Below are positions 3,608 through 63,570 of a DNA stretch of 64,000 nt, piece after piece. This DNA is from Candidatus Dojkabacteria bacterium (GTDB lineage: Bacteria > Patescibacteriota > Dojkabacteria > SC72 > JAFGCJ01). The stretch's first letter is position 1; each line of letters begins with the position of its first letter. The position numbers and the translations under genes are program-made. The notes under the pieces are model-generated. The model was not told where the DNA came from, made no database searches, and was given only the letters and a program-made list of their open reading frames with translations. The DNA lies in assembly GCA_016929645.1 (NCBI GenBank), contig JAFGIK010000086.1, forward strand, positions 408 through 64,407, written 5' to 3'.

Positions 3608-4072
3608 TTACTCCCCAATTAGATTAACAACAATATCAGTTGTACTTGTTTTTGTAGGACAACTAATTACTAACTCAAGAGGATATTTACCCAGCTCTCT
3701 TAAAGGTTGAGAAAGTACAATATCTAAGGAAATAGAAGAGTTATCAGCTATTTTCATCTTCTTCATAATTACCTGAAGAACCTCATCTTTATCCACTGAA
3801 CCAAATAAGCGGCCACCACTACTTGCCTTAGCTTTTATCTGGAAAACTTTATTCTTGACAGATTGGGCTATTTTTATTACCTCATCAGCAGCCACAAGCG
3901 ATTGCTCTTCCTCCTGCTTCGCCGTCTTCTTGGCCTGAGCCAAAACATTATCAGAAGCAACAGCTGCAATCTTTCGTGGGATTAGAAAATTTACGGCATA
4001 TCCAGATTTAATTTCTACAATATCACCCTTCTTCCCAATTCCCTTACAGTCTTCTATCAAAACTACTTTCAT
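3608..4072 (-). CDS. rplI: 50S ribosomal protein L9
   Basis: N-terminus MKVVLIEDCKGIGKKGDIVEIKSGYAVNFLIPRKIA is the canonical L9 signature. Confidence 0.93.
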   Translation of the reverse strand: MKVVLIEDCKGIGKKGDIVEIKSGYAVNFLIPRKIAAVASDNVLAQAKKTAKQEEEQSLVAADEVIKIAQSVKNKVFQIKAKASSGGRLFGSVDKDEVLQVIMKKMKIADNSSISLDIVLSQPLRELGKYPLELVISCPTKTSTTDIVVNLIGE

Positions 4073-5467: not shown

Positions 5468-7132
5468 TCAAAGATATTGTGAAGGATTTTGAATAAAATC
5501 CCGTCTAAGCATACGTTGTAGCTGAATCATTTTTCCTAGTAAAGTTGCTCCTGCGGTTCTTGATCGACAAATTTTCTTACCTGAAAAGAATTCATCTAGA
5601 CCGCAAATTCGATCCTGCTCAGATCTTAATTTCAAAAACTCTCCTGTACCTCGCCGTACTCGATTAAGTCTATAACTATTTCTTGATTTAGCTATTCCGA
5701 TAGCTTTCTGTAAGCTACTTTGAGGATATCCTGCTTTGAGATATTCAATGGAGGCAATTGTAGATAAGGCTTCAATCTCAGTATCCATAATTAATTTAGA
5801 AACACGGTATCTAACTGATTCGTCCTCATTATATATTTGATCTAAAGAATATCCAGGATAAAATAACTGCCATAATTCTAATCTGCTATCAGAACAAAAT
5901 TTTTGAACAAATCCTAATTCTTCATTAAAAAGGTTTAGAACTTGATCAACACTCAATCTCTCAAGATCTGAATAACCTTGTTCAGGATAGTTATCTTGAA
6001 TGTATCCGAGAAGAAGTCTTGAGTATCCATCAAATAGCAGCTTATTGAGTCTGAGTTTTTCTGCACTTTTATTTTCAGGATTATCCAGAACATTGGCAGA
6101 AATAAACATCATTTCCAACATATAGTTATCAAACACTTGAGTTTTTACACGATCAGTCATCAAATATTGCAATGAGTGACCCGTACCCTCATAATCTTCA
6201 TCGTACCATCCATACTTATCAAGCCAGTAATCAGCAAAACCTTTAAATTCTGATTCATTTTGACGTCTCCACTCATTCGCAATAACAGTCATCTGTTCAT
6301 TAGAAAGAGAATAATTAGCCACAAACTGTTCATCTATCTGACTCATACAAGTCTCATCCCATTCACACACACGCGTCAAGTATTCACTCATTGTAGAAAT
6401 ATCTATTCCAATCATGCTGATTACAGGGATATCCTGATCCGGTGTTGCCCCTGTTATATGAACTGGGGCAACTTTTGATTCTTGAGAAAACATAGTATCC
6501 AATGGATTGATTCCAGATAAATCGTCGGTCAAGAAGGGAGAAGGATCATCATAAAACAATAAATATTGTAAACCCTCGACAGTAAGAACACCTTCGTTTG
6601 CAGGTGATGCCGGAATAAGATAGAAAAGCCCATTTGTGGATCTTACGGAATAGATAGCGATCGATTGATCAGGGATACGATTATCCAAAGACGAAAGCAG
6701 ATCAGCTGGATTTTCAATTCCTGCCTCAGTCATCATACGGACATAATGCTTGCGGACTGCAGACATAGCGAAATCAATATCAACAAGATTTGCTCCTTCA
6801 CCAATTCTGAATTTATACATATTTACACCACTATCCCTGGTTTCCGATTCTACTTTTATTTCTGTACCAGATGTAATCACTTCTGAGTGCTGAATTTCAT
6901 ATCGAGGTGGAAATTTGGACATATGATCTTCATTAAATGCAGGCTGACCAAATTGGTTTAATACTATATCGCCAGCTTTACTTGATATACCTGAAGAAAG
7001 AGGAGATGTTGTAGGTATTTTATCTCCTGTAGAGCTTGTATCAGGTGTACGATTATTTGGCGTACTACAGGCGGTAAATGATGTAATTGCTGCAGCTAGA
7101 ACTAATCTGATTCCCTTACTTTTAAGATCCAT
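5468..7132 (-). CDS. predicted lipoprotein of unknown function (554 aa)
   Basis: Signal peptide with lipobox LAAAITSFTAC followed by a Ser/Thr/Pro-rich linker; no recognisable catalytic motif. Confidence 0.6.
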   Translation of the reverse strand: MDLKSKGIRLVLAAAITSFTACSTPNNRTPDTSSTGDKIPTTSPLSSGISSKAGDIVLNQFGQPAFNEDHMSKFPPRYEIQHSEVITSGTEIKVESETRDSGVNMYKFRIGEGANLVDIDFAMSAVRKHYVRMMTEAGIENPADLLSSLDNRIPDQSIAIYSVRSTNGLFYLIPASPANEGVLTVEGLQYLLFYDDPSPFLTDDLSGINPLDTMFSQESKVAPVHITGATPDQDIPVISMIGIDISTMSEYLTRVCEWDETCMSQIDEQFVANYSLSNEQMTVIANEWRRQNESEFKGFADYWLDKYGWYDEDYEGTGHSLQYLMTDRVKTQVFDNYMLEMMFISANVLDNPENKSAEKLRLNKLLFDGYSRLLLGYIQDNYPEQGYSDLERLSVDQVLNLFNEELGFVQKFCSDSRLELWQLFYPGYSLDQIYNEDESVRYRVSKLIMDTEIEALSTIASIEYLKAGYPQSSLQKAIGIAKSRNSYRLNRVRRGTGEFLKLRSEQDRICGLDEFFSGKKICRSRTAGATLLGKMIQLQRMLRRDFIQNPSQYL

Positions 7133-7262
7133 AATTTATGTTCAAAAAAATTACGCCAAACATTTGTCATTATAACAAAACAAAGGGAAAATTGGGAATT
7201 CCATAGCTGAAATATACTAATATTGGGGCATCACAAGAATACTTCGGTCATTAACACACAAC

Positions 7263-8333
7263 CTAAATCAACACAAAACTATTTTCGGAAAGTAATACTT
7301 TCCTTCCACTATCAAGAATAACTTGTATCAAATCTTCATTATCCATAATGCTAATTACCTTGGCAGTATAGCCCCAAAAAGGAAGATCAAGAATTTTCAC
7401 AAAGTCTCCAATTTTAACAAGCCTCACAGGACAAATATCGACATTATTAAAATCTGGAATATTTACAAAAAAACTTCGCTTCTTTATATTCTCTCGATCG
7501 TCATGATAAAGCACAATCGATTCCCTATCAACATCAAGATAAGTGAACTTATCCTTATGACTGGATAATAAATCTAATAACACAGCATTTATTGGTATCG
7601 TACCCCACCCTTCAGTAACAAATATTGGGATAACTTCATCCTTTATACCGTCAAATTCGGCACGATCAACAGCACCTACAATTATGCCGGAAACATCATT
7701 TTCTACAGCAGCTTCATAAAGCTTGAACGTCAGTTTTCGACCAAGTACAAGAATCTTGCCCTTACATGATTCATCAATGTCGGATGTAGAGTACATGGAG
7801 TTTCCATCTTTTATTAATTTCAATTTCCCTCCCTTACTTTCACCCACACACGTAAAAGCCTTGGCTACAAAACCATTTACTGAAAAACTGATACTTCGTC
7901 GATAGTTGCTTAGAGGTAGGATATTGAAGACCTTGCCATAGATACCTGCTTTCACACTTGAATATTCAGAAGGAGCCATGATATCAACAAAACCAGAAGA
8001 CAGACGATCAAGAGCAACCTTCCCATTATATTGAGAAAAAGCAATTTTCTCTGCAAGACCAAAGGAAACGGAGCGACGCGCAATTACTTCTCCCTTATCA
8101 ATAATCTCCCCTTGATCTTTGAGTAAATATTTGCCAACTTCATCGACATTCACACCCAAATCTTTTGGTAGATTTATTGACTGCAATACTTCAGAAGATT
8201 CTCCTTCAAAGATTAACGAATCTGGACTAATCTCATCACCCTTTGATACAACACAGCTAGCAGATCCAGAAAAATCTATTGAGATTTCTTCATCAGTTGA
8301 ATAGTAAATTTTCTTTTCTTCAACCCCAATCAT
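7263..8333 (-). CDS. hypothetical protein with KOW-like C-terminal motif (356 aa)
   Basis: C-terminal IGDFVKILDLPFWGYTAKVISI resembles the KOW motif (GDxVxVxxGPFxGxxGxV). Start overlaps the upstream gene stop by about 4 nt, indicating co-transcription. Confidence 0.5.
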   Translation of the reverse strand: MIGVEEKKIYYSTDEEISIDFSGSASCVVSKGDEISPDSLIFEGESSEVLQSINLPKDLGVNVDEVGKYLLKDQGEIIDKGEVIARRSVSFGLAEKIAFSQYNGKVALDRLSSGFVDIMAPSEYSSVKAGIYGKVFNILPLSNYRRSISFSVNGFVAKAFTCVGESKGGKLKLIKDGNSMYSTSDIDESCKGKILVLGRKLTFKLYEAAVENDVSGIIVGAVDRAEFDGIKDEVIPIFVTEGWGTIPINAVLLDLLSSHKDKFTYLDVDRESIVLYHDDRENIKKRSFFVNIPDFNNVDICPVRLVKIGDFVKILDLPFWGYTAKVISIMDNEDLIQVILDSGRKVLLSENSFVLI

Positions 8334-8337
8334 TTGA

Positions 8338-9696
8338 TTAATACGAAAGGTTTAAATTATTTAACCACCTTGAAAGGCGACTTCTATTTTGCATTATTCC
8401 AGGTCCATAAACAATTGGAGATTCACGACAATCAATCACAAGCTTATCGCAAGGATTTTTAAAACTCAAAGAAAATTCAGAATTTGATCCATTAAGAGAA
8501 GGGAAGAATGCCCCATTCTGCGGACGAAATTTTACATACTCAGCTTCATGAATATTCATCGTATAAAAATCGCCAAACACTCCAAGTATTGGCTCCATCG
8601 AAGGTGTTCTTTTGTCATCCGGAAGTAAAGTCAACTCCTTATATGAAATATTATTATCTTCTTTAAAGTTAATATGACCTTTGAAGCATACTGAACCTAT
8701 ATTAGAATCATTTCCACCCTCACATGTAAGATATTTAATAGAAGGATTAAAAAGTCGCTTTATCGAACAAATAAAATCTTTCTTTAACTCTGGATTCAAC
8801 ACAACAGATCCATTTATAAAATTCTCGTCATTATCGAAAATGACATCAAAATTTCCTCTAAGTTGCAAACCGTCAATTACTGATAGGAAAATCAATTCGT
8901 TCGAAAGAATTTTTGTTAAATCTCCAGTGATCAATAAAGCAGCTCTCAATCCATCTCTACCAAGTTTATTAAATTCGCTATCTTTAATTTTTATCAATTT
9001 TAAAGTCAATAAAGAACGAAAAATATCTTTAACATCAACGGAAGAACAGTTTAATACGGGATCCTTCATGACATTATGCAAGAAATTATCCAATTCCTGA
9101 CTATTTATATTCACGGAAAGAGTATTAGAAATCAACGGTAGAAGATTATCTATATCAGAAACAAACTTCGAATGATACTCCTTGATACTATCGACAACAG
9201 AATCTTGCGCATTAGTGTTATTACCGAGATGAAAAACATCAATATCATCCCAACCTAAATCAACCACAACCAGGTCATCCACTTCAAGAAGCTCTCTTAT
9301 TCTGATAATCTCTTTTGATTTCGAACTATCATTGTACAAAACAGATCTTACTCCAAGAACATTTGAATAAAAATCTTTTTGATAAAACTTAGGACATACA
9401 AGCAAAAATGCTTCAGTGACGCCTAAGCCATCCTCCTGCATAGGCCGTATCAAGGAATTGTCCTCATTGATAAACTTCCAATCAACCTCGCGAACCCAAT
9501 TCTTTAGAAATTTAGCACAGAGACTATCAAGCAATGACAATGAAAAATCTGTGGGAATTCTGACATAATCAGACGTAACAAGAGAATCTCCTGTTACATA
9601 ATCAGAAATTATCAGAGAAAATCTTACGCTTACATCAGTTACTGCAACAATAAGTCTATTATCCTGTCTCTCAGTTGGATATTTGGGCAGATTCAT
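8338..9696 (-). CDS. hypothetical protein, possibly a divergent actin/Hsp70-fold (ASKHA) ATPase-like protein (452 aa)
   Basis: VVVDLGWDDIDVFH matches DxGxxxxD phosphate-2 spacing (compare DIGGGTTD in MreB/FtsA). N-terminal IVAVTDVSVRFSL resembles a degenerate phosphate-1 motif. LLITGDLTK resembles an adenosine motif. Pattern-level call only. Confidence 0.35.
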   Translation of the reverse strand: MNLPKYPTERQDNRLIVAVTDVSVRFSLIISDYVTGDSLVTSDYVRIPTDFSLSLLDSLCAKFLKNWVREVDWKFINEDNSLIRPMQEDGLGVTEAFLLVCPKFYQKDFYSNVLGVRSVLYNDSSKSKEIIRIRELLEVDDLVVVDLGWDDIDVFHLGNNTNAQDSVVDSIKEYHSKFVSDIDNLLPLISNTLSVNINSQELDNFLHNVMKDPVLNCSSVDVKDIFRSLLTLKLIKIKDSEFNKLGRDGLRAALLITGDLTKILSNELIFLSVIDGLQLRGNFDVIFDNDENFINGSVVLNPELKKDFICSIKRLFNPSIKYLTCEGGNDSNIGSVCFKGHINFKEDNNISYKELTLLPDDKRTPSMEPILGVFGDFYTMNIHEAEYVKFRPQNGAFFPSLNGSNSEFSLSFKNPCDKLVIDCRESPIVYGPGIMQNRSRLSRWLNNLNLSY

Positions 9697-16265: not shown

Positions 16266-17780
16266 TTACTCAATCTCAATAAACTCGCCTTCCTTTTTCA
16301 AAACCTCTGTACCAATATCCAAACGCTCTTTGCCTGTTGCATATAATGTAACAATTGTTTCCCCAGTTTTCACAGTTTGGCCACGAAGTTTATGAAAATA
16401 TAGCCCTGCCTCCTTGATAAACGGAGCACCAAGTGCACGAGCAATGTTCACAACCTGTTTATTCCCAATTCGAGAAATCACTCCGTTTTTCGTAGCCTTC
16501 ACATCATAGGTATACTTCGCAAGAATAAGCTCATCCGATTTTACTTTTTTAGTTGCTCCCTGAGCAAAAGCGATACTCCAGAATTTTTCTGCGGCTTCCC
16601 CACTTTCAAGTTTGGCACGAGCAAGTTTCTCTCCTTCTCCAGGAGCACAAACTTCGCTAAGTTCTAGTAACCTACCAGCCATCTCAATAGCAACTCCTTC
16701 AAGAACCATTGGTCTCAAAGGATCTCTTTCAAAAATTCTCAATAAATCACGCATTTCTAAAAGTGGCCCTACCCCATATCCATCAGGACCTAAAGACTCA
16801 CGAGTAAATACATCTACTTTGATATTGAATTTCTGACATAACTTTTGAAAACTTTGCGTCACTAATTCAGCTTCCTCTCTGCTATGAAGCTTTGCTCCAT
16901 CTCCATACGGAATGTCAATTAACAAATGAGTAATTTTCATAGCTAGTTTTTTGGCAATTATACTGACTAGGAATTTATCATTTGATTCAATATTCAACGG
17001 ACGTTCAAGATTAATCAGAATGTCATCTGCAGGAGCAAGATCAAAACCACCACCCCAGACAAGACACGCTCTCTCTTTTTTCATAACTTCATATATTTTT
17101 TCCTTAGTCAAAGCAACCGGCATTACAACCTCCAACATATCAGAGGTGCCTGCAGGAGTTGTAATTGCACGTGAAGCAGTATTCGGCACAACAACATCAT
17201 CGAAAAGTGCAACTATTGGCACCAAAATCGGAGTTACACCTTTAGAAGGAATACCACCAATTGAGTGTTTATCAATTATCTTTCGATCAGGCTTTCCTTC
17301 GCTAAAATCCATAATATCTCCAGTTTCTGCCATAGATTTTGTCATATAATACACTTCCTCTTCATCAAATCCTGGATTAAAAGAAGTTGCAGCAAAATAT
17401 GTCATCATTACCGTACTCAACCTCCTGTTAGAGATGTCATCCATTATTTCATGAATCTCTTCGTAGGTAAGTTTTTGTCCTTTTATCTTCTTTCTTATAT
17501 ATGCTTCAGATTTTGGTGGCTCAGGTATTGTAATACTGCACAAATCATCTGCTGGAATATTATACTTATCCCAAACTTCATTAAACATTCCAATTTCACC
17601 AGAATTTACAAGACTATCACTGATATCAACACTTACATAAAGACAAACATCTTTCCAACATAAATAAACTTTATGTCCATTTGGAATTGCAAATTCAGCA
17701 GAATCCTTAGAATTAAGAACAACAACAAGTGGATCACCAGCAGAAACATCTAGTTTTTTCGACTTAAGATAGAAAGCCAT
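16266..17780 (-). CDS. AMP phosphorylase (thymidine-phosphorylase family, archaeal DeoA-like)
   Basis: Family II pyrimidine-nucleoside phosphorylase fold. The N-terminal extension and the MAETGD region align with archaeal AMP phosphorylase (AMPpase). Adjacent to RuBisCO and R15P isomerase. Confidence 0.8.
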   Translation of the reverse strand: MAFYLKSKKLDVSAGDPLVVVLNSKDSAEFAIPNGHKVYLCWKDVCLYVSVDISDSLVNSGEIGMFNEVWDKYNIPADDLCSITIPEPPKSEAYIRKKIKGQKLTYEEIHEIMDDISNRRLSTVMMTYFAATSFNPGFDEEEVYYMTKSMAETGDIMDFSEGKPDRKIIDKHSIGGIPSKGVTPILVPIVALFDDVVVPNTASRAITTPAGTSDMLEVVMPVALTKEKIYEVMKKERACLVWGGGFDLAPADDILINLERPLNIESNDKFLVSIIAKKLAMKITHLLIDIPYGDGAKLHSREEAELVTQSFQKLCQKFNIKVDVFTRESLGPDGYGVGPLLEMRDLLRIFERDPLRPMVLEGVAIEMAGRLLELSEVCAPGEGEKLARAKLESGEAAEKFWSIAFAQGATKKVKSDELILAKYTYDVKATKNGVISRIGNKQVVNIARALGAPFIKEAGLYFHKLRGQTVKTGETIVTLYATGKERLDIGTEVLKKEGEFIEIE

Positions 17781-17830
17781 TTAGACTTTATTAAAAAATT
17801 ATTAACTTGAATCATCAAGAAAATCAAATA

Positions 17831-19144
17831 CTACATCAGACCCTCTGTCAATCCATACGTATAGGTAATTAATGAGTTATTTTTAGGAACCAACAACGAT
17901 TCATCTTTGTATACACCCCACTTATCAATTGCCCGTTGTAGTTCTTTATGATCTTTAGCATATTCGTTCAAATCAATTTTGGCAATAGAGGCATCAACAG
18001 CCTGAGATGCTGCAATCGCTCCACTCTTTGTACCATCTGGATGACCATGAATACCGCCACCGAGATTAATAATGACATCATTGCCAATCAATTCAATCAT
18101 CTTTTGCAATAATCCAGGATGTACACCACCAGAAGCAATTGGCATAGTCTTCTTTAAATTACCCCATTCACATCTCATTGCATTATTAATTGCAGAGACT
18201 TCCTCTTCTCCACCATGCATTTTTCCAATAATTGTCCCTGTATGTAGCTGATCTATACCACAAATCCTTGCAGTTTTAGCTATTGGCAACATTGCTATAC
18301 CATGTTTGGTTGAGTGGGTAAATGCTCCATGCATCGCACGATGTCCATGAAGAACCAATCCTGTATTTTGATCACGAATATATTGTACCCCAGCAAAACC
18401 GACAGTCAGAATATCCATCATAACAGCAATGCCACCCTGAGCTTTAACAAATTCAGCTCGCTTAAGCATGTCTGATGCCTGTGCACTAATATTTGGTACA
18501 TACATCTTCTTTTCACCAGTGATATCTTCAGCTTTTCGAAGCATAGCAAGAGTCTTAACTACACGCTCCTCAAATGGATTGAATGATTGATTGGAGAGAT
18601 TTTCATCATCCTTAACAACCTGAACTCCACCAACCCATGCATCAAATGCTACAGAGGCATGTCTATCAGCATCTAATCCAACCTTTGGTTTAATTATTGT
18701 CCCAAGAAGTGGTCGTTCAGGAATTCCTAATAACTTTCTGATACCACTAATACCAAATGCTGGTCCATCAAATGTCCTAAGATAAGCCTTAGGAAATATA
18801 ATATCTCTAACCCGCAAGTTGATTATTTCATTCATACCAAACACATTACCAGCAACATCAGACAATAACTGTGGTATATTTTCAGCTTCAAATAAACCTA
18901 AGGGGTAGGCAATCTTAACAATATGCTCTTCTTCATTAGCATAAAAAATTCTCGCGCCCAAACGTGTCATTATATCAGCATCCATCGTGGATAAATCAGT
19001 CCATGTACCAATAGATGATTCTGCTGCCAAAGCCTCAGCAACCTCAAGGATACTTTTGTCAGATTCTACATAAAACTCAGTAATTATATATTTATCAACA
19101 TCTATGTTTTCTCCAAGATGCAGATAACTTTGTTTTCCGTACAT
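17831..19144 (-). CDS. rbcL: ribulose-1,5-bisphosphate carboxylase large subunit, form III-like (II/III)
   Basis: RuBisCO motifs GTIIKPKVGLD, VGGVQVVKDDENL and GGGIHGHP; 437 aa, no small subunit gene. Confidence 0.88.
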   Translation of the reverse strand: MYGKQSYLHLGENIDVDKYIITEFYVESDKSILEVAEALAAESSIGTWTDLSTMDADIMTRLGARIFYANEEEHIVKIAYPLGLFEAENIPQLLSDVAGNVFGMNEIINLRVRDIIFPKAYLRTFDGPAFGISGIRKLLGIPERPLLGTIIKPKVGLDADRHASVAFDAWVGGVQVVKDDENLSNQSFNPFEERVVKTLAMLRKAEDITGEKKMYVPNISAQASDMLKRAEFVKAQGGIAVMMDILTVGFAGVQYIRDQNTGLVLHGHRAMHGAFTHSTKHGIAMLPIAKTARICGIDQLHTGTIIGKMHGGEEEVSAINNAMRCEWGNLKKTMPIASGGVHPGLLQKMIELIGNDVIINLGGGIHGHPDGTKSGAIAASQAVDASIAKIDLNEYAKDHKELQRAIDKWGVYKDESLLVPKNNSLITYTYGLTEGLM

Positions 19145-19213
19145 AAGTTTTTTAATTAGAATTTAATTAATTAATCACATATAATTCTTAACTTTCCGAA
19201 ATACTACAAAAAA

Positions 19214-20209
19214 TTACCACATCCATTCATAATACTTGTTCATAGTCTCTTCGAGATCCTCAGGTTTGATAATTCCAAACTCGGTTACAAAACCAGTAAC
19301 AAATTGATGAGGAACAACCTCGAAAGCAGGATTAACAACAAGAACTTTTTCCGGTGCCTCGTCCCAAACCTCTTTAGGATCCCTCATTTCAATTTTCGGC
19401 TTAAGATATATGCTAGAAGGCTCCATCTTAAGAAGAGAGCCTACAACATATAATGGTTTACTAGCAAAATGACATGCAAGACCAATTCCAAAGCTACCTA
19501 CTTTATTTATTAAACTTCCATCAAAGTTTATTTGATCACATCCAATAAACACGGCATCCACAGGAATATCCCAGTCACCCCACTTACCCATAATATCACT
19601 TGCTTTCCATTCACCAGAGATAAATGACTCAACAGCACCATCTGCGATTAGTAATACCTCAATACCAGCCTTTGCAAGATTCGAAGCCGTAATTCTGCCT
19701 TGATAACGAGGACGAGTTTCTGTAGCAACAATAGAAAACCACTCCTTTTCCTTTTTCATTGAAACAATACCTTTAATCATATTCTCTACGGTTGAGGAAT
19801 GACAATGGGTAACTATACCATTAATATTATGGAAATTTTCAACACCAACCTTCACGATCTGAGCCTTAGTACTATCAAGTATTTTGATGAAATCATCCAT
19901 TACTACTGCAAGCTTTTCACAAGCAGTATCAATATCTTTTATTTCCGGGAATTTTATTTTATATGTATTCATTAAATATTTGAGACCATTTCTTGCTAAT
20001 GGCTCATTTGGTCTTGCATTAACTAACGACAAACCAACTTTTTCTACATCAGATATAAATACATCATAGTTTTTTCCCTTATGATTTAAAGAATCTTTCA
20101 AATAAATTTTAATTCCATCAAAACAAGCTTCTGCAACAGCAGTAGCACCTTGAATCTTCAGAGATTCAATATCACTAATAATTTGTTTTATATTAGAAGG
20201 AACTTCCAT
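19214..20209 (-). CDS. ribose-1,5-bisphosphate isomerase (eIF-2B alpha/beta/delta-like family)
   Basis: e2b2/MtnA-family fold, 331 aa, third member of the AMP-phosphorylase/RuBisCO cluster. Confidence 0.75.
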   Translation of the reverse strand: MEVPSNIKQIISDIESLKIQGATAVAEACFDGIKIYLKDSLNHKGKNYDVFISDVEKVGLSLVNARPNEPLARNGLKYLMNTYKIKFPEIKDIDTACEKLAVVMDDFIKILDSTKAQIVKVGVENFHNINGIVTHCHSSTVENMIKGIVSMKKEKEWFSIVATETRPRYQGRITASNLAKAGIEVLLIADGAVESFISGEWKASDIMGKWGDWDIPVDAVFIGCDQINFDGSLINKVGSFGIGLACHFASKPLYVVGSLLKMEPSSIYLKPKIEMRDPKEVWDEAPEKVLVVNPAFEVVPHQFVTGFVTEFGIIKPEDLEETMNKYYEWMW

Positions 20210-43277: not shown

Positions 43278-45083
43278 CTATAAATGCCTATCACTGCTTG
43301 ATTTTCCAGCGGAGAACTCTTTACCAAACTCTTTTTCAGCAGAATCCATAACCTTATTTTCCCACAAAGATCTTCTGCCTTTCTTTGACATTCTCATCTT
43401 AAGATCACCCATACCGCCACCTACTCTTTCAGAAACAAACAAGATTACATTGTCGAACATTCCAGATTTATAAGAAAAACCGGCAACAACAAGAAGCAAA
43501 CCACCCAATGCTATCCTTGCTAGTGTACTGTCAAAAAGTCCAGTATTAGGTAGTCTACAAGTCACAAAAATATCCTCATCCGCATATATATCACCAGGCT
43601 CTGGCTCAGTAACATGGGCAAACACCTGATTATGTAAAGTTAGTCCAAAGGCCTCTCTTGGTACACGAATAGTATATCTAAAGTATCTCCAACACGAATC
43701 ATCTGTACAAGGCTCAAAGATTTGATCATCTCCTTCAAGATTCCATCTAATATGTTCTGATGTTATTTCTCCAGGAGGAATTGTTGGACTTGTTGATATG
43801 ATCCAATTCTGTTGAATAGTGTCATCATAGTGATCTTCTACATATTCTATCTTTCCAGTGCTCCCTTCAGCAGTGTTTCTTATCCTAATTTCGTAAGTGA
43901 TATCAGCATATACACTTGATGTACCCTCTTCATAACAAACAGGCGTGCCATTCTTCTCAATCTCCCAATCAGGAGGTGTCTCTTCCTGACAGACACACTC
44001 AGGCTGAATACACTCACTCCACAAACACTCCTGTTGAGGACCACCCGGATCGCCAAGCTCACAATGCTCATAATCCTGATTATAAATACGATCACCACAG
44101 AAAGGAGCAACCTGCTCTATACTTGCCGTACAGGTTTCAGCTTCCTTCCAACTATCCGCATAATTGTCAGCATCCGCAACATCAACCTTCACACTGTAAG
44201 TATGACCAGATTGCTGAGTGAGACTAAATGTACCGTTTAATGTACACTGATTTCGTCGACCAATATTTCCGTTCTGGATAAGTGGTTCACCAGTTCTAGC
44301 ACAAGTAATCATACTTGAGCCAGCCTCAACGATTTGAGGATATCCACTTACAACCTGGCCATCTTCCATTACGGTAACTCTAAATCTAACATTATCTCCA
44401 TCGATATCTTCTCCTCGAGTTGTAATTGACAAGGTATTTGTAGCCTGGTCCCATGTAGCAGTAGTGTCAATACAGTAGGTACATGCTGACCAATCAACTG
44501 AGTCACAGCTACCAGCAGCACCTTGAGCATCGAAACACATTACGGTAGCATCCCCAGCACAATCCATCTGGCCAAGAGAACATGGATATGAATTAAGGCT
44601 TAGCGAAGCACCATCGCCAGTATAGACCCAATAACCTTCAATAACATATTCAGAAAAATTTCCACCGCCATCACAACCCGCTCTAGGACCACTACAACTG
44701 GCACCAGTAATACTTGCAGAAGCATCATCAGTGCTACAAGCAGAGCCACTAGTTGTACATGTAAGACCACCACAATTGCACGTACAAGTACCATCATCAG
44801 GAGTTGTTCTTGGTGTACAATGACACCATCGATCATGACCATCTCCATCACCATCACACTCTTGTCCATCAAGACACGCAGCTTGCTCATCTGAAGCACA
44901 ACATGTTACTCCCTCAGTCGAACTACAACAATCATGTTCCGTACCAGCCTGACTCTCCTCAGGCGTCACCTCTTTGGGCTGATTCAACCTCCAGATAACA
45001 TAAACAGAAGCTCCAATAGCTAAAACTCCAAGAATCGAACCAAGGATGATAAAAATCGTTTTTTTGTTAATTCTAGTTGCCAA
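43278..45083 (-). CDS. Cys-rich secreted surface protein with LPxTG-type sortase signal
   Basis: N-terminal TM/signal. Dense Cys clusters (HDCCSSTEGVTCCASD, CHCTPRTTPDDGTCTCNCGGLTC). Near the C-terminus LPNTG + hydrophobic helix (LARIALGGLLLVVAGF) + basic residues, followed by an unusual about 70-aa tail. Confidence 0.65.
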   Translation of the reverse strand: MATRINKKTIFIILGSILGVLAIGASVYVIWRLNQPKEVTPEESQAGTEHDCCSSTEGVTCCASDEQAACLDGQECDGDGDGHDRWCHCTPRTTPDDGTCTCNCGGLTCTTSGSACSTDDASASITGASCSGPRAGCDGGGNFSEYVIEGYWVYTGDGASLSLNSYPCSLGQMDCAGDATVMCFDAQGAAGSCDSVDWSACTYCIDTTATWDQATNTLSITTRGEDIDGDNVRFRVTVMEDGQVVSGYPQIVEAGSSMITCARTGEPLIQNGNIGRRNQCTLNGTFSLTQQSGHTYSVKVDVADADNYADSWKEAETCTASIEQVAPFCGDRIYNQDYEHCELGDPGGPQQECLWSECIQPECVCQEETPPDWEIEKNGTPVCYEEGTSSVYADITYEIRIRNTAEGSTGKIEYVEDHYDDTIQQNWIISTSPTIPPGEITSEHIRWNLEGDDQIFEPCTDDSCWRYFRYTIRVPREAFGLTLHNQVFAHVTEPEPGDIYADEDIFVTCRLPNTGLFDSTLARIALGGLLLVVAGFSYKSGMFDNVILFVSERVGGGMGDLKMRMSKKGRRSLWENKVMDSAEKEFGKEFSAGKSSSDRHL

Positions 45084-46480: not shown

Positions 46481-47029
46481 TTACATATTCAGGATCTCAT
46501 CCTGCTTCTTGTCTGAAAACTCATCAATATTATCAATTATACTTGAGATATGTTTTTCAAATTCATCTTTCTTTCGCTCAATATCATCTTCCGATACCCC
46601 ACCAGATTTTAACTGATTATCAAGCTCTTCCATAATTTTATGACGAACCTGTCGTACAGCAACTTTGGATTCTTCTGTTCTAATCTTAACATCTTTAACA
46701 TAATTTTCTCTAATTTCCTGAGTCATGGAAGGAATACTAATTCGAATAGTTTCACCATCAACAATAGGAGTGATATCAATATCCGCAGCAAAAATAGCTT
46801 TCTCAATAGACTTTAAATTCGTCTTATCCCAAGGCTGTATCAAAATAGTTCTAGGATCAGGAGTAGAAATATTCGCAATATGCTTAATCGGCATTGTCGA
46901 TTCATACACCTCAACTTGAACAGAATCTAATATCTCTGGATTCGCCCGACCAAGTCTCAACTGATTCATCTCCCCTTTAAACCGCGAAACAATCTCGTCA
47001 AGTTTCTCCTTAGCCTCTGAAATATTCAT
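46481..47029 (-). CDS. frr: ribosome recycling factor
   Basis: 182 aa; RLGRANPEILDSVQVEVYES...PWDK signature. Confidence 0.92.
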   Translation of the reverse strand: MNISEAKEKLDEIVSRFKGEMNQLRLGRANPEILDSVQVEVYESTMPIKHIANISTPDPRTILIQPWDKTNLKSIEKAIFAADIDITPIVDGETIRISIPSMTQEIRENYVKDVKIRTEESKVAVRQVRHKIMEELDNQLKSGGVSEDDIERKKDEFEKHISSIIDNIDEFSDKKQDEILNM

Positions 47030-47083: not shown

Positions 47084-47791
47084 CTACTCTCCAAGCTTTA
47101 TTCTGTAAATACGACCTAAAGAAATTTTTTCTCCGATATTTGCAATTGCATCGTCAAGGATGTTTCGGATAGTTTTCTCTTCGTCTCTGAAGTATTTCTG
47201 CTCAGTAAGACATGATTCTTCGTAAAATTTCTTGAGTTTACCTTCCGTAATTTTCTCTATAATGTCATCTGATTTTCCCTTAAGTTCATCTGATTCTTTT
47301 ATCATTTTTTTCTGCTCTTCTATAACGGCCTTTGGTACCAAATCAGGCTCAGCATATTTTGCACCATTTGAAGCTACCTGCATTGCAAGTTCATGTGCTA
47401 AATTTTTGAATTTTTCGTTTTTGGCGACAAAATCTGTATCACAAAAAAGCTCGACAATAATAACCAACTTCTGCTCTTCTCCATGAATATAAATTCCAAG
47501 ACCACCCTCTTTTTTCTTTTCTTGAGAAGGATCTCCACCCCAACCGTTTTCCTTAATAATTTCGACAGCTTTCTCAAAATCACCTTCAGCTTTTTCATGT
47601 GCAATTTTACAGTGAATTATCTTTGCTCCAGTTAGGTTATAAAGCCTTGAAACAACGTCACTTCTTTTATCAATATACTTACGTGCCTTTTCAAAGTCAC
47701 CATCACTATCCGTCAATGCCTCTTTACAAAGAGCCATACCAGCAGAAGTCATTTTCCTAAGCTTCATTATATCCTTTGCTTTAAACGCCAT
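47084..47791 (-). CDS. tsf: elongation factor Ts
   Basis: N-terminal UBA-like LRKMTSAGMALCKEAL; 235 aa. Confidence 0.9.
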   Translation of the reverse strand: MAFKAKDIMKLRKMTSAGMALCKEALTDSDGDFEKARKYIDKRSDVVSRLYNLTGAKIIHCKIAHEKAEGDFEKAVEIIKENGWGGDPSQEKKKEGGLGIYIHGEEQKLVIIVELFCDTDFVAKNEKFKNLAHELAMQVASNGAKYAEPDLVPKAVIEEQKKMIKESDELKGKSDDIIEKITEGKLKKFYEESCLTEQKYFRDEEKTIRNILDDAIANIGEKISLGRIYRIKLGE

Positions 47792-47829: not shown

Positions 47830-49080
47830 TTACTTCTTTAATGCTTTATTAATATCTTCGATAGCTTTTTCTCCAACTCCTTTTAATCCTAGTAACTCGC
47901 TTTTAGTTTTGGATCTAAGCTCATCGACAGTCTTGATATTACTTTCTTTTAACGCATTCAATGTTCGTTTAGGAAGTTTAAGTTCATTAATGTCTGTAAC
48001 CTTTTCTTCATTCATAGTAGCCATCTTTTTCACAACCTTCTTTACTGATTTCTTCGAATCTTCAACCTTACCTGATGTTTTACTGGAAGAGGTATCTGCT
48101 TGTACGATTCTAACAACTTTGCCAGAGGTAGCATCCGATTCTGCAACATCAACCCCATCTTTCATTGCTTTAAGCTTCTGAACATGTAATTCCTGCTCCA
48201 TCCTTTTTCTTTCTTGCTCTTTTTCAGAAAATTGCCTTTTAGCTTCAATATTTGAGATATAATCATTTCTCCTCTTAATCAAATCTCTACTTGGTTTAGA
48301 ATCAGAAAAAGCCTGGGCAAGATAGTCAATAAATAATCTTAAGGATTTAATTGCATCATCATTTCCGGGGATTGGATAATCAATAACCTTTGGATCACAA
48401 TTTGTGTCAACTATTGCAACCAATGGAATATTCATCTTTCTCGCCTCTTTTATTGCGATTCTCTCAAATTTGGTATCAATTACAAACATAGCGACAGGTT
48501 TCTTATCCATAAATGTTACCCCTTCATATACTTTCTCATATCTTTCCCTATCACGATCCATAACACCACGCTCTCGTTTTGTTTCATAACCAGAATGCGC
48601 AGCAAGATTTTCATCCAAAAACATCAATTTATTAATACTCTTTTGAATAGATCGCGAATTTGTCAGTAATCCAGCTGGCCATTTTTTACTAATATAGAAA
48701 GCTCCATGATCAATACCTGCATTTTTAATTAATGTTGCAGCTTGACCTTTAGTACCAACCAATAATATGTTCCCCTGTGTCGAAATTTTCGCAAGGAATT
48801 CAGCAGCCTCTCTCATAAGCTTTAACGTTTGAGTGAGGTCAATAATATGCATATTATTTCTGACGTCAAAAACATAATCCTTCATAGCGGGATTCCATCT
48901 GCTCTTTTTATGTCCAAAGTGACAACCAGCAGCAAGAAGCTCTTGAAGAGTCACATCTTTGATCTTACTTAGATCAACAGATTTTACTTCCTCTGGTTTA
49001 CGAACAAAATTTGAAGGTCTTGATGATTTAGATATTTTTTTAGAGGCTTTTACAGCCTCCTTTGCAGTTGATTCTGCCAT
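47830..49080 (-). CDS. rpsB: 30S ribosomal protein S2 with C-terminal RNA-polymerase-alpha-CTD-like HhH domain
   Basis: S2 core (LLAAGCHFGHKKSRWNP...). Basic Lys/Ser-rich linker. C-terminal LKLPKRTLNALKESNIKTVDELRSKTKSELLGLKGVGEKAIEDI matches the alpha-CTD pattern L.LS.R..N.L....I.TV.DL......ELL...N.G.KS..EI. Confidence 0.85.
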   Translation of the reverse strand: MAESTAKEAVKASKKISKSSRPSNFVRKPEEVKSVDLSKIKDVTLQELLAAGCHFGHKKSRWNPAMKDYVFDVRNNMHIIDLTQTLKLMREAAEFLAKISTQGNILLVGTKGQAATLIKNAGIDHGAFYISKKWPAGLLTNSRSIQKSINKLMFLDENLAAHSGYETKRERGVMDRDRERYEKVYEGVTFMDKKPVAMFVIDTKFERIAIKEARKMNIPLVAIVDTNCDPKVIDYPIPGNDDAIKSLRLFIDYLAQAFSDSKPSRDLIKRRNDYISNIEAKRQFSEKEQERKRMEQELHVQKLKAMKDGVDVAESDATSGKVVRIVQADTSSSKTSGKVEDSKKSVKKVVKKMATMNEEKVTDINELKLPKRTLNALKESNIKTVDELRSKTKSELLGLKGVGEKAIEDINKALKK

Positions 49081-49102
49081 TGTAGTATCCTCCTTAAATA
49101 AG

Positions 49103-63156: not shown

Positions 63157-63233
63157 GCCGATGTAGCTCAGTTGGCTAGAGCAACGGTTTTGTAAACCGT
63201 AGGTCATGAGTTCGAATCTCATCATCGGCTCCA
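63157..63233 (+). tRNA. tRNA-Thr (anticodon UGU), CCA encoded
   Basis: Cloverleaf read by eye: acceptor GCCGATG/CATCGGC, D-arm AGCTCAGTTGGCTAGAGC, anticodon stem ACGGT/ACCGT with loop TTTGTAA, T-arm GGTTCGAATCC. Confidence 0.9.
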
Positions 63234-63255
63234 AGGATTCGTGTAACAATTTTGT

Positions 63256-63341
63256 GCAGGGATGCCAGAGTGGTCAAATGGTCTGGACTGTAAATCCAGC
63301 GCCGCAAGGCTACACAGGTTCAAATCCTGTTCCCTGCACCA
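63256..63341 (+). tRNA. tRNA-Tyr (anticodon GUA), long variable arm, CCA encoded
   Basis: Acceptor GCAGGGA/TCCCTGC, anticodon stem CTGGA/TCCAG with loop CTGTAAA, long variable arm (class II), T-arm GGTTCAAATCC. Confidence 0.9.
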
Positions 63342-63365
63342 GATAAAACTTCAAGAAGCCTAGCA

Positions 63366-63438
63366 GCTGGAATAGCTCAGTTGGCAGAGCGCATCCATGG
63401 TAAGGATGAGGTCCCGAGTTCGATCCTCGGTTCCAGCT
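63366..63438 (+). tRNA. tRNA-Thr (anticodon GGU), no encoded CCA
   Basis: Acceptor GCTGGAA/TTCCAGC, anticodon stem CATCC/GGATG with loop ATGGTAA, T-arm GAGTTCGATCCTC. Confidence 0.88.
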
Positions 63439-63570
63439 TTTTGGAAAGAATATGATTGGAAAAGAATATCAATCACCACTCCCGATATTCGAAAACATTC
63501 AGTTTATGTAGTCGTCAACAAAGCATTTCTACAAAAAACTTATTATTCACAAAAATCAACAGGTATTCGC

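What the first reader, a model, noticed from the sequence alone, without database searches (positions are those of the whole stretch)
47830..49080. Ribosomal protein S2 fused to an RNA polymerase alpha-CTD-like helix-hairpin-helix domain
After the S2 core and a lysine/serine-rich linker, the last about 50 residues (LKLPKRTLNALKESNIKTVDELRSKTKSELLGLKGVGEKAIEDINKALKK) match the alpha-subunit C-terminal domain signature. That domain binds UP-element DNA and transcription factors. An S2 fusion could tether ribosomes to nucleic acid or couple transcription and translation.
Basis: partly seen in the sequence, partly recalled or inferred. Interest (0 to 1): 0.55.

Follow-up and report, generated by a model that had tools for sequence, protein, structure and literature searches.

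The report
Ribosomal protein S2 carrying an alpha-CTD
In this candidate-phylum bacterium (Dojkabacteria), ribosomal protein S2 ends in a genuine copy of the DNA-binding C-terminal domain of the RNA polymerase alpha subunit, a fusion conserved across the lineage and apparently never discussed in print, which places a transcription-type nucleic-acid-binding module on the ribosome at a site where RNA polymerase and NusA dock in E. coli.

Summary
The ORF at 47830-49080 (-) encodes a 416-aa bacterial uS2 in a normal rpsB-tsf-frr operon. Its last ~55 residues are a real RNA polymerase alpha-CTD: Pfam PF03118 scores 51 bits against a cutoff of 23.8; the best PDB sequence and fold matches are RpoA CTDs; TM-scores reach 0.88. 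The organism is a Candidatus Dojkabacteria (WS6, Patescibacteria) MAG.

The fusion is not an artefact. Of the 120 closest S2 proteins, 97 carry the domain at the same syntenic locus. In one subclade it has repeatedly been replaced by long Lys/Arg-rich or short tails.

The E. coli alpha-CTD DNA-contact positions are the best-conserved surface residues: R265 (94/97), G296 (97/97) and K298 (87/97). The domain follows a long helix and a flexible linker.

My best reading is a tethered arm that binds nucleic acid, probably duplex DNA, on the 30S solvent face. Its function is inferred, not shown. I could not retrieve the lineage's own RpoA, so I cannot say whether the S2 copy is extra or displaced. 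I found no published description. I class it as a new variant of known parts, of moderate interest.

The parts
47830..49080 (-). rpsB: 416-aa uS2-alpha-CTD fusion protein, including the stop codon at 47830-47832
   Evidence: ORF. Identical to an NCBI protein annotated '30S ribosomal protein S2 [Candidatus Dojkabacteria bacterium]' (P0001). TIGR01011 rpsB_bact scores 253 bits.
49089..49095 (-). Shine-Dalgarno sequence AAGGAGG, 8 nt upstream of the ATG
   Evidence: Read directly from the sequence.
48955..49080 (-). N-terminal basic extension, residues 1-42 (11 K/R), predicted disordered and absent from E. coli-type S2
   Evidence: pLDDT 45-50 for the first 30 residues. Relatives have extensions of variable length, median 23 or 54 residues by clade.
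48298..48954 (-). uS2 core, residues 43-261
   Evidence: Pfam PF00318 at residues 48-259, E 2.1e-73. Model pLDDT above 90. Foldseek matches to ribosome-bound S2 chains have target-normalised TM 0.9-0.95 and rmsd 1-2 A.
48160..48297 (-). Long charged helix extending the S2 C-terminus, residues 262-307
   Evidence: A single helix H262-307 with pLDDT about 95. It is conserved in all relatives whatever their tail type.
48103..48117 (-). Conserved V-V-R-I-V motif, residues 322-326 (R324 nearly invariant); role unknown
   Evidence: A VVRVV-like motif is present in 112 of 120 relatives, including those without an alpha-CTD.
47995..48159 (-). Flexible K/S-rich linker, residues 308-362 (contains the VVRIV motif and the internal Met353/Met356)
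   Evidence: pLDDT below 50 for residues 318-345 and 347-359. In the query's clade the linker has a median length of 54 residues and is strongly basic; in the large clade it is 25 residues and slightly acidic.
47833..47994 (-). Alpha-CTD-type double helix-hairpin-helix domain, residues 363-416. R372 (47965-47967) corresponds to E. coli R265. The hairpin G401-V402-G403 (47872-47880) places G403 at E. coli G296, and K405 corresponds to K298.
   Evidence: PF03118 at 51.3 bits. All PDB phmmer hits are RpoA; the profile scores 3.7e-16 against 1doq. Model pLDDT is about 92 (full-length) and 84 (tail alone). All top 50 Foldseek hits are RpoA CTDs, 49 of them with TMq 0.76-0.88 and one at 0.67.
47084..47791 (-). 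tsf (EF-Ts), immediately downstream in the same operon
   Evidence: Pfam EF_TS, E 2.4e-28. The order rpsB-tsf-frr is conserved in relatives.
46481..47029 (-). frr (ribosome recycling factor)
   Evidence: Pfam RRF, E 2.7e-53.

Best explanation
Shown: this is the single orthologous rpsB gene of a Dojkabacteria bacterium. Its product is a normal uS2 core extended by four elements: (i) a 46-residue helix, (ii) a conserved VVRVV motif, (iii) a flexible basic linker of about 40-55 residues, and (iv) a complete alpha-CTD-type double helix-hairpin-helix domain homologous to the C-terminal domain of the RNA polymerase alpha subunit. Inferred: the domain works as it does in RpoA, as a small module on a flexible tether that grips the backbone and minor groove of duplex nucleic acid. 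It would do so through the conserved arginine (R372 = E. coli R265) and the second hairpin (G403, K405). Because it hangs from uS2 on the solvent side of the 30S subunit, beside the SD/anti-SD duplex and the bS1 anchoring site, I think it most likely binds AT-rich chromosomal DNA non-specifically. That would keep 30S subunits and ribosomes next to genes being transcribed and favour co-transcriptional loading of the first ribosome. In sister lineages a long Lys/Arg-rich polycationic tail does the same generic job.
For: Identity. The DNA-contact set of E. coli alpha-CTD is the most conserved surface in 97 S2 tails: R265 position R in 94/97, G296 position G in 97/97, K298 position K in 87/97, N268 position K in 69 and N in 27, S299 position A/S/T in 97/97, while neighbouring surface positions vary freely. 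The numbering was verified against the exact E. coli RpoA sequence. The tail model superposes on DNA-bound alpha-CTDs (1lb2, 3n4m, 3n97, 9zum) at rmsd 1.0-1.5 A. The domain is separated from the core by a segment predicted to be disordered, so it is a tethered arm and not part of the S2 body. In the query's clade the alpha-CTD has been replaced several times by Lys/Arg-rich (K/R fraction 0.3-0.5 of the last 60 residues) or short tails in the same syntenic gene, and one protein (P0004) has both. This fits a shared polyanion-binding role. Position on the ribosome comes from the literature: uS2 borders the SD-aSD duplex and anchors bS1 (PMC10983998), and RNAP/NusA contact uS2 in E. coli complexes.
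Against: No binding was tested. The same residues are conserved in all RpoA CTDs, so their retention could partly reflect fold or ancestry. In the large clade the linker is short (25 residues), acidic and helix-prone, and the domain is only mildly basic (median +2). That fits a fixed position on the ribosome, and therefore an RNA or protein partner, as well as it fits a free DNA-seeking arm. Lys-rich tails on ribosomal proteins usually bind rRNA, not DNA. An A-form RNA helix is not excluded as the ligand. The lineage's own RpoA could not be examined.
Confidence: 0.35

Rival explanations
1. RNA-directed role on the ribosome. The alpha-CTD, and the Lys-rich tails that replace it, would bind 16S rRNA, the SD/anti-SD helix or incoming mRNA next to uS2. 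That could stabilise a remodelled CPR small subunit or assist mRNA capture alongside a shortened bS1.
For: uS2 borders the SD-aSD duplex and is the bS1 anchor (PMC10983998). CPR ribosomes have many lineage-specific protein extensions, including Ala/Lys-rich tails, and mostly 3-4-domain S1 proteins (10.1101/2022.01.07.475337). The short, helix-prone linker in the large clade suggests a defined location near the S2 body. The helix and VVRVV extension are conserved independently of tail type. A profile of the S2 tails also detects the helix-hairpin-helix part of haloarchaeal ribosomal protein L32e (E 2.4e-05), so this motif occurs on other ribosomal proteins.
Against: Alpha-CTD and classical HhH motifs are known as B-DNA backbone and minor-groove binders (established knowledge). 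The conserved arginine is used for minor-groove insertion, which an A-form RNA helix does not offer in the same way. bS21, which already contacts the SD-aSD helix, is encoded a few genes downstream in relatives, so the tail is not filling in for a missing S21.
Confidence: 0.3
2. Protein-protein adaptor for transcription-translation coupling. The ribosome-borne alpha-CTD would mimic RNAP's own alpha-CTD and bind the same partners (NusA, sigma, transcription factors or RNAP itself), bridging the lead ribosome to the elongation complex.
For: In E. coli TTC-B, NusA KH1 docks on uS2/uS5 (10.1101/2024.03.13.584796). uS2 lies close to RNAP omega in collided expressomes, and a core RNAP-30S site maps near uS2 (10.1101/2020.03.01.971028). 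Alpha-CTDs resolved in TTC-B structures (8y5l, 8y5t) are among the fold matches. The acidic pair at E. coli positions 258/259 is retained (E in 75/97, D or E in 91/97).
Against: E261 of the sigma-contact '261 determinant' is Gly in 72/97 tails, and the 286-288 patch is not conserved as in E. coli (K/E/D). The domain stops at the equivalent of E. coli S309, so it lacks the 315-318 part of the activator-contact surface. Its repeated replacement by low-complexity Lys-rich tails is hard to reconcile with a specific protein interface. No nusA or rpoA could be examined in this lineage.
Confidence: 0.2
3. Displaced rather than duplicated domain. Dojkabacteria RpoA would have lost its own CTD, and the S2-borne copy would serve RNA polymerase in trans.
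For: Only that it could not be excluded. No rpoA is present in the window or in any fetched locus.
Against: Many Dojkabacteria in the query's clade lack the S2 alpha-CTD altogether (22 of 33), which would leave them with none. RpoA CTD is near-universal in bacteria (established knowledge). Stoichiometry and geometry would be very different.
Confidence: 0.04
4. Artefact: a mis-assembly, a read-through gene call, or a fused annotation of two genes.
For: An internal Met-Ala-Thr-Met (M353, M356) precedes the domain, and stand-alone ~70-aa alpha-CTD proteins exist (P0251, 50% identical).
Against: One uninterrupted frame. The same architecture occurs in 97 of 120 distinct homologues from NCBI, JGI, ENA and Logan assemblies, including contigs of 0.7-1.1 Mb. 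There is only a weak SD-like GAAGG before M353.
Confidence: 0.01

Closest known systems
C-terminal domain of the bacterial RNA polymerase alpha subunit (RpoA alpha-CTD, Pfam PF03118; e.g. T. thermophilus 1DOQ, B. subtilis 1Z3E/3IHQ, E. coli 1LB2)
   Same: Same fold (TM 0.78-0.88, rmsd about 1 A) and same sequence family (51 bits; 62 bits by profile against 1DOQ). Same flexible-tether design. Same key residues: R265, G296 and K298, with N268 retained in the query. The G-I-G hairpin is shared with Thermus RpoA.
   Different: It is attached to ribosomal protein uS2 and not to the alpha N-terminal (dimerisation/assembly) domain. It ends at the equivalent of E. coli S309, so it lacks the C-terminal arm (residues 310-329). 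E261 is mostly Gly and S299 mostly Ala. There would be one copy per ribosome, against two per RNAP.
Bacterial ribosomal protein uS2 (TIGR01011 / PF00318) and its C-terminally extended variants, e.g. NCBIfam NF051451 'S2, sunset domain variant'
   Same: Canonical uS2 core, rpsB-tsf-frr operon, single orthologous locus. Other lineages also append extra C-terminal modules to S2, as the existence of NF051451 shows.
   Different: The appended module here is an alpha-CTD. The protein scores 199.5 bits against a cutoff of 710 for the sunset variant and does not reach that model's C-terminal part (profile positions 316-382), so it is not that variant.
Lys/Ala-rich terminal tails on CPR ribosomal proteins (e.g. 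S19 in Parcubacteria; Tsurumaki et al., 10.1101/2022.01.07.475337)
   Same: Lineage-specific, basic, probably nucleic-acid-binding extensions of small-subunit proteins in Patescibacteria. The sister S2 proteins (P0005-P0008 and others) carry exactly such tails at the same position.
   Different: Here the extension ends in a folded, recognisable domain. That paper reports that its CPR-specific regions match no Pfam domain, and it does not list S2.
NusG/NusA-bridged transcription-translation complexes of E. coli (TTC-B) and the bS1 arm anchored on uS2
   Same: A flexible nucleic-acid- or factor-binding element sits at uS2, the 30S protein contacted by NusA KH1 and by RNAP omega, and the protein that anchors bS1.
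   Different: In those systems the links are separate proteins (NusA, NusG, bS1). Here a transcription-type domain is covalently part of uS2. No coupling function has been shown.
Haloarchaeal ribosomal protein eL32 (L32e; 1JJ2/1S72 chain, 240 aa) with an N-terminal helix-hairpin-helix segment
   Same: Another ribosomal protein carrying an HhH-type module, detected by the S2-tail profile (E 2.4e-05, residues 28-64).
   Different: Large subunit, archaeal, only a partial single-HhH match, and not the alpha-CTD family.

Membership tests
RNA polymerase alpha-CTD domain family (PF03118) | Profile match above the curated threshold over essentially the whole domain | tested here: met
   51.3 bits against a gathering score of 23.8, covering profile positions 7-66 of 67. 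NCBIfam rpoA models match only the C-terminal part.
RNA polymerase alpha-CTD domain family (PF03118) | Compact four-helix, double helix-hairpin-helix fold superposable on solved alpha-CTDs, and closer to them than to other HhH families | tested here: met
   AF2 pLDDT is 92 (full-length model) and 84 (tail alone). All 50 top Foldseek PDB hits are RpoA CTDs, 49 with TMq 0.76-0.88. In the profile search the 21 best PDB sequences are RpoA; Hel308, Pol X, ComEA and L32e match only partially at E of 1e-08 or weaker.
RNA polymerase alpha-CTD domain family (PF03118) | DNA-contact residues of the '265 determinant' (E. coli R265, N268, C269, G296, K298, S299) | tested here: met
   The query has R372, N375, A376, G403, K405 and A406. 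Across 97 tails: R 94, N268 position K 69/N 27, C269 position A 74/S 19, G 97, K 87, S299 position A 75/S 18. R, G and K are kept; Cys and Ser are replaced by Ala.
RNA polymerase alpha-CTD domain family (PF03118) | Sigma and activator contact patches (E. coli '261' and '287' determinants) | tested here: not met
   D258/D259 stay acidic. E261 is K in the query and G in 72/97 tails. E286/V287 are K/S in the query and K/E in the family. The domain ends before residues 315-318. These patches are lineage-specific even among RpoAs, so this limits functional analogy, not domain membership.
RNA polymerase alpha-CTD domain family (PF03118) | Actual binding to AT-rich/UP-element DNA | not testable with these tools
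   Needs biochemistry.
RpoA (the RNA polymerase alpha subunit itself, TIGR02027) | N-terminal dimerisation/assembly domain (PF01000/PF01193) preceding the CTD | tested here: not met
   Only the CTD part of the rpoA models matches (41-49 bits against cutoffs of 228-523). The N-terminal 260 residues are uS2. The protein is not an alpha subunit.
Bacterial ribosomal protein uS2 (TIGR01011 rpsB_bact) | Full-length equivalog match above the cutoff, an S2 fold, and the rpsB-tsf genomic context | tested here: met
   253 bits against a cutoff of 76.3. Foldseek matches ribosome-bound S2 at target-normalised TM 0.9-0.95. The order rpsB-tsf-frr holds here and in relatives.
S2, sunset domain variant (NCBIfam NF051451) | Score above 710 bits, including the model's C-terminal domain | tested here: not met
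   199.5 bits; only profile positions 4-316 of 382 are matched.

The most novel reading that the evidence does not exclude
The uS2-borne alpha-CTD is a ribosome-resident mimic of RNA polymerase's own alpha-CTD. It would engage the same ligands (AT-rich promoter-proximal or upstream DNA, or NusA and other transcription factors) and so hard-wire the 30S subunit or lead ribosome to the transcription machinery. That would be a covalent transcription-translation coupling device in an ultra-small CPR bacterium, distinct from the NusG/NusA bridges of E. coli.
Probability: 0.15. Interest if true: 0.85.

Novelty: new variant of a known kind. Interest (0 to 1): 0.55.

Why it matters
uS2 is the 30S protein that anchors bS1, borders the SD/anti-SD helix, and is contacted by NusA and RNA polymerase in E. 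coli expressome structures. A transcription-type DNA-binding domain covalently fixed there, and conserved across a whole candidate phylum, points to an experiment. The experiment would test whether some bacteria physically link ribosomes to the nucleoid or the transcription complex through a ribosomal protein, without separate factors. A 60-residue domain and a point mutant (R372A) would be enough for a first test. The finding also adds a folded domain to the catalogue of CPR-specific ribosomal protein extensions, which so far contains regions with no recognisable domain. The natural swap between alpha-CTD and Lys-rich tails within one clade offers a built-in comparative experiment. If the domain merely binds rRNA, the finding is a modest addition to ribosome diversity.

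Tried and rejected
1. I searched for the lineage's own rpoA. An HMM of the S2 tails against the six-frame translation of the window found only the S2 tail. A tblastn search with the verified E. coli RpoA against the window and 80 fetched loci found nothing. The same HMM on seven Dojkabacteria-type loci found only S2. No tool path reached RpoA from this lineage, so whether the S2 copy is extra or displaced is unresolved.

2. A tail-only search of the named 5.8-billion-protein database failed because no candidate shared three 5-mers with the query. One capped search was lost.

3. The exhaustive phmmer search with the tail was dominated by multi-repeat alpha-CTD proteins, whose scores add up. It did not rank S2 tails against RpoA CTDs.

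4. The tail alignment A2 was too variable for the genome pattern scan. Whether other Patescibacteria classes have the fusion was not determined.

5. I rejected the idea that the alpha-CTD compensates for a missing bS21, because rpsU is present a few genes downstream in relatives.

6. I rejected the idea that the G-x-G hairpin sets the tail apart from RpoA, because Thermus RpoA has the same G-I-G.

7. I rejected membership of the NCBIfam 'sunset domain' S2 variant. The term does not occur in the biological literature I could search.

8. Literature searches for any description of an S2/alpha-CTD fusion found none. The library lacks most subscription-journal papers, so absence is not proof.

9. 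Promoter and terminator scans around the gene were no better than shuffled sequence.
Full report
**1. The observation**

The ORF at 47830-49080 on the minus strand encodes 416 residues. The ATG at 49080 lies 8 nt downstream of a perfect AAGGAGG, so the annotated start and the ~42-residue basic N-terminal extension are real.

Pfam finds two domains:
- Ribosomal_S2 at residues 48-259 (E 2.1e-73).
- RNA_pol_A_CTD (PF03118) at residues 356-415, covering profile positions 7-66 of 67 (E 9.8e-14, 51.3 bits against a gathering score of 23.8). The generic HhH families score far lower.

NCBIfam confirms a bacterial rpsB equivalog (253 bits against a cutoff of 76.3). It matches only the C-terminal part of several rpoA models. 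S2 and the tail lie in one uninterrupted frame.

**2. Is the tail really an alpha-CTD?**

- A single-sequence phmmer search of all PDB sequences returned 32 hits, all of them RpoA. The best was the B. subtilis alpha-CTD at 7.3e-07.
- A profile of 34 diverse S2 tails hit the T. thermophilus alpha-CTD (1doq) at 3.7e-16. The 21 best sequences were all RpoA. Other HhH proteins (Hel308, Pol X, ComEA, haloarchaeal L32e) matched only partially and more weakly.
- AlphaFold2 on a 45-sequence alignment gave mean pLDDT 84.7. The model has a confident S2 core, one long helix (262-307, pLDDT about 95), a disordered stretch (318-359, pLDDT below 50), and a confident four-helix C-terminal module (360-416, pLDDT about 92).
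- The S2 part superposes on ribosome-bound S2 chains, with target-normalised TM 0.9-0.95.
- A separate model of the tail (pLDDT 84) gave 50 top Foldseek PDB hits, all RNAP alpha CTDs, 49 with TMq 0.76-0.88 and one at 0.67. rmsd is mostly 1-2 A, and the hits include DNA-bound complexes 1lb2, 3n4m, 3n97 and 9zum.

**3. Organism and context**

The protein is identical to an NCBI entry, '30S ribosomal protein S2 [Candidatus Dojkabacteria bacterium]', on a 64.5-kb contig. Dojkabacteria corresponds to candidate division WS6. The window has about 35% GC.

The neighbourhood is ordinary housekeeping: nrdD, then rpsB-tsf-frr, then an M50 protease, an ORF with no Pfam hit, ybeY, pth and mfd. The rest of the window contains no rpoA, nusA or rpsA.

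**4. Conservation**

Of the 120 best homologues (39-60% identity; sources NCBI, JGI, ENA and Logan), 97 carry the alpha-CTD module. The other 23 have long Lys/Arg-rich or short tails.

A neighbour-joining tree of the S2 cores shows two clades:

| Clade | Size | Typical length | Tail type |
|---|---|---|---|
| Large clade | 86 sequences | about 376 aa | alpha-CTD in every member |
| Query's clade | 33 sequences | variable | 11 alpha-CTD proteins interleaved with 22 lacking the domain (Lys/Arg-rich or short tails) |

One protein, P0004, has both tail types. The simplest reading is an ancestral fusion with several later replacements.

Synteny is the same for an alpha-CTD protein of each clade and for a Lys-tail protein: topA-radC-(glyA)-rpsB-tsf-frr-M50-X-rpsU-yqeY-ybeY-pth-mfd. 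This is therefore one orthologous gene with a variable tail, and bS21 is present.

The long helix and a VVRVV-like motif (112 of 120) are conserved whatever the tail type. Linkers differ between the clades:
- Query's clade: median 54 residues, strongly basic.
- Large clade: median 25 residues, slightly acidic and helix-prone.

**5. Which alpha-CTD features are kept**

I used the PDB alignments and the exact E. coli RpoA sequence (329/329 identical to PDB chains). Query residue n corresponds to E. coli residue n-107. Counts across 97 tails are.

| E. coli position | Residues in S2 tails (of 97) |
|---|---|
| R265 | R 94 |
| G296 | G 97 |
| K298 | K 87 |
| N268 | K 69, N 27 (N in the query) |
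| C269 | A 74, S 19 |
| S299 | A 75, S 18 |
| N294 | G 97 |
| E261 | G 72 (K in the query) |

- The hydrophobic core is nearly invariant at positions L260, L262, L270, L281, L289 and I303.
- The 286-288 patch differs from E. coli, and the domain ends at the equivalent of S309.
- From established knowledge of alpha-CTD/DNA complexes, R265, N268, G296, K298 and S299 are the DNA contacts, with R265 in the minor groove.
- The DNA-binding surface is therefore retained, while the E. coli-type sigma and activator patches are not.

**6. Mechanism (inference)**

According to the literature:
- uS2 borders the SD/anti-SD duplex and anchors bS1 (PMC10983998).
- NusA KH1 docks on uS2/uS5 in E. coli TTC-B (10.1101/2024.03.13.584796).
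- uS2 lies close to RNAP omega in collided expressomes, and a core-RNAP binding site on the 30S maps near uS2 (10.1101/2020.03.01.971028).

A tethered alpha-CTD at this position could take one of three roles:

| Reading | Role | Confidence |
|---|---|---|
| a | Binds chromosomal DNA and keeps ribosomes next to transcribing genes | about 0.35 |
| b | Binds rRNA or mRNA | about 0.3 |
| c | Binds NusA, RNAP or a transcription factor | about 0.2 |

I rank (a) first because the DNA-contact set is the conserved surface and because generic polycationic tails can replace the domain. The margin over (b) is small. The short acidic linker of the large clade and the usual rRNA-binding role of basic tails on ribosomal proteins both favour (b). 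Repeated replacement by low-complexity tails argues against a specific protein interface (c). None of this was tested experimentally.

**7. Comparison with what is known**

The two parts are well-known families. The combination is already visible in precomputed Pfam annotations of public proteins.

I found no paper that mentions it:
- The systematic study of CPR ribosomal protein extensions lists many proteins but not S2. It states that its CPR-specific regions match no Pfam domain.
- The other literature searches were negative.
- The library omits most subscription-journal papers, so absence is not proof.

The protein is not the NCBIfam 'sunset domain' S2 variant. The alpha-CTD is a mobile module in general. 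The exhaustive search found tandem arrays of 3-11 copies, RpoA proteins with a duplicated CTD, TPR fusions, and stand-alone 71-aa proteins.

**8. Limits**

- I could not obtain RpoA from any Dojkabacteria genome with the available tools. Whether the S2 domain is an additional copy is therefore untested. It is very likely an extra copy, because 22 of the 33 relatives in the query's clade lack the S2 alpha-CTD entirely.
It recovered only two tail-bearing loci (L001, L002) among 80, so the distribution outside Dojkabacteria is unknown.

**9. Verdict**

The fusion is real, lineage-wide and under selection. Its function is inferred.

It is a new variant built from known parts, already present in sequence databases but apparently undescribed in print. 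I score interest at 0.55. It is noteworthy for people working on transcription-translation coupling and on CPR ribosomes, it is easy to test in vitro, and it is not a new kind of system.

Noticed in passing
window 3608-4072 (-): A 154-aa ORF matches both domains of ribosomal protein L9 (PF01281, E 1.1e-18; PF03948, E 8e-09). The CPR literature states that L9 is absent from Dojkabacteria (Brown et al. 2015, as cited in 10.1101/2022.01.07.475337). Either this lineage is an exception or that generalisation is incomplete.
   Followed up: no
window 16266-20209 (-): Three adjacent genes: an AMP/thymidine-phosphorylase-like protein (PF02885/PF07831/PF00591), a RuBisCO large subunit (PF00016, E 1e-81), and an IF-2B-family protein that is probably a ribose-1,5-bisphosphate isomerase (PF01008). 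This looks like the nucleoside-salvage RuBisCO pathway known from CPR bacteria and archaea (from my own knowledge).
   Followed up: no
proteins P0121-P0270: The closest matches to the S2 tail in the 1.84-billion-protein representative library are proteins made of 3-11 tandem alpha-CTD-like repeats (e.g. P0121, 806 aa, 11 repeats, with a hydrophobic N-terminus). Others are RpoA proteins with a duplicated CTD (P0211, P0177), TPR proteins with two alpha-CTDs (P0226, P0263), and a stand-alone 71-aa alpha-CTD (P0251). Their taxa and functions are unknown.
   Followed up: partly
window 48013-48024 (-), residues M353-A-T-M356: The alpha-CTD segment is preceded by Met-Ala-Thr-Met, with a weak GAAGG about 11 nt upstream. 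This could be a trace of a formerly separate small alpha-CTD gene, or it could allow internal initiation of a free 64-aa domain. Other clade members do not share it.
   Followed up: partly
window 43278-45083 (-); also L081 16374-18203 and L085 13737-15881: A large ORF (601 aa here; 609-714 aa in the relatives compared) with no Pfam match keeps a fixed place between the M50 protease and rpsU in two of the three relatives examined. In HGW-Dojkabacteria-1 the ORF in that slot is 529 aa and hits PF01345. Its function is unknown.
   Followed up: no
window 5468-9696 (-): Three consecutive ORFs of 554, 356 and 452 aa have no Pfam hit at E <= 1e-05.
   Followed up: no
PDB chains 1jj2_X, 1s72_Y, 3cma_Y, 9l94_Q: The profile of S2 tails detects an HhH-like segment (residues ~28-64) in the N-terminal extension of haloarchaeal ribosomal protein L32e/eL32 (E 1e-06 to 2.4e-05). 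This is another case of an HhH module on a ribosomal protein.
   Followed up: no
window 48955-49080 (-), and relatives: Dojkabacteria S2 proteins also carry a basic, disordered N-terminal extension. Its median length is 23 residues in the large clade and 54 in the query's clade, reaching over 100 in some Lys-tail proteins. Some of the longest may be start-codon miscalls.
   Followed up: partly
window 63157-63439 (+): A tRNA-Thr(TGT), tRNA-Tyr(GTA), tRNA-Thr(GGT) cluster lies at the end of the window. Rfam's gathering threshold reported only the first two. In HGW-Dojkabacteria-1 an rpmG (L33) gene lies beyond the syntenic mreB-side M50-like gene (L083). The secE-nusG-rplKAJL-rpoBC region may therefore follow just outside the window.
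   Followed up: no
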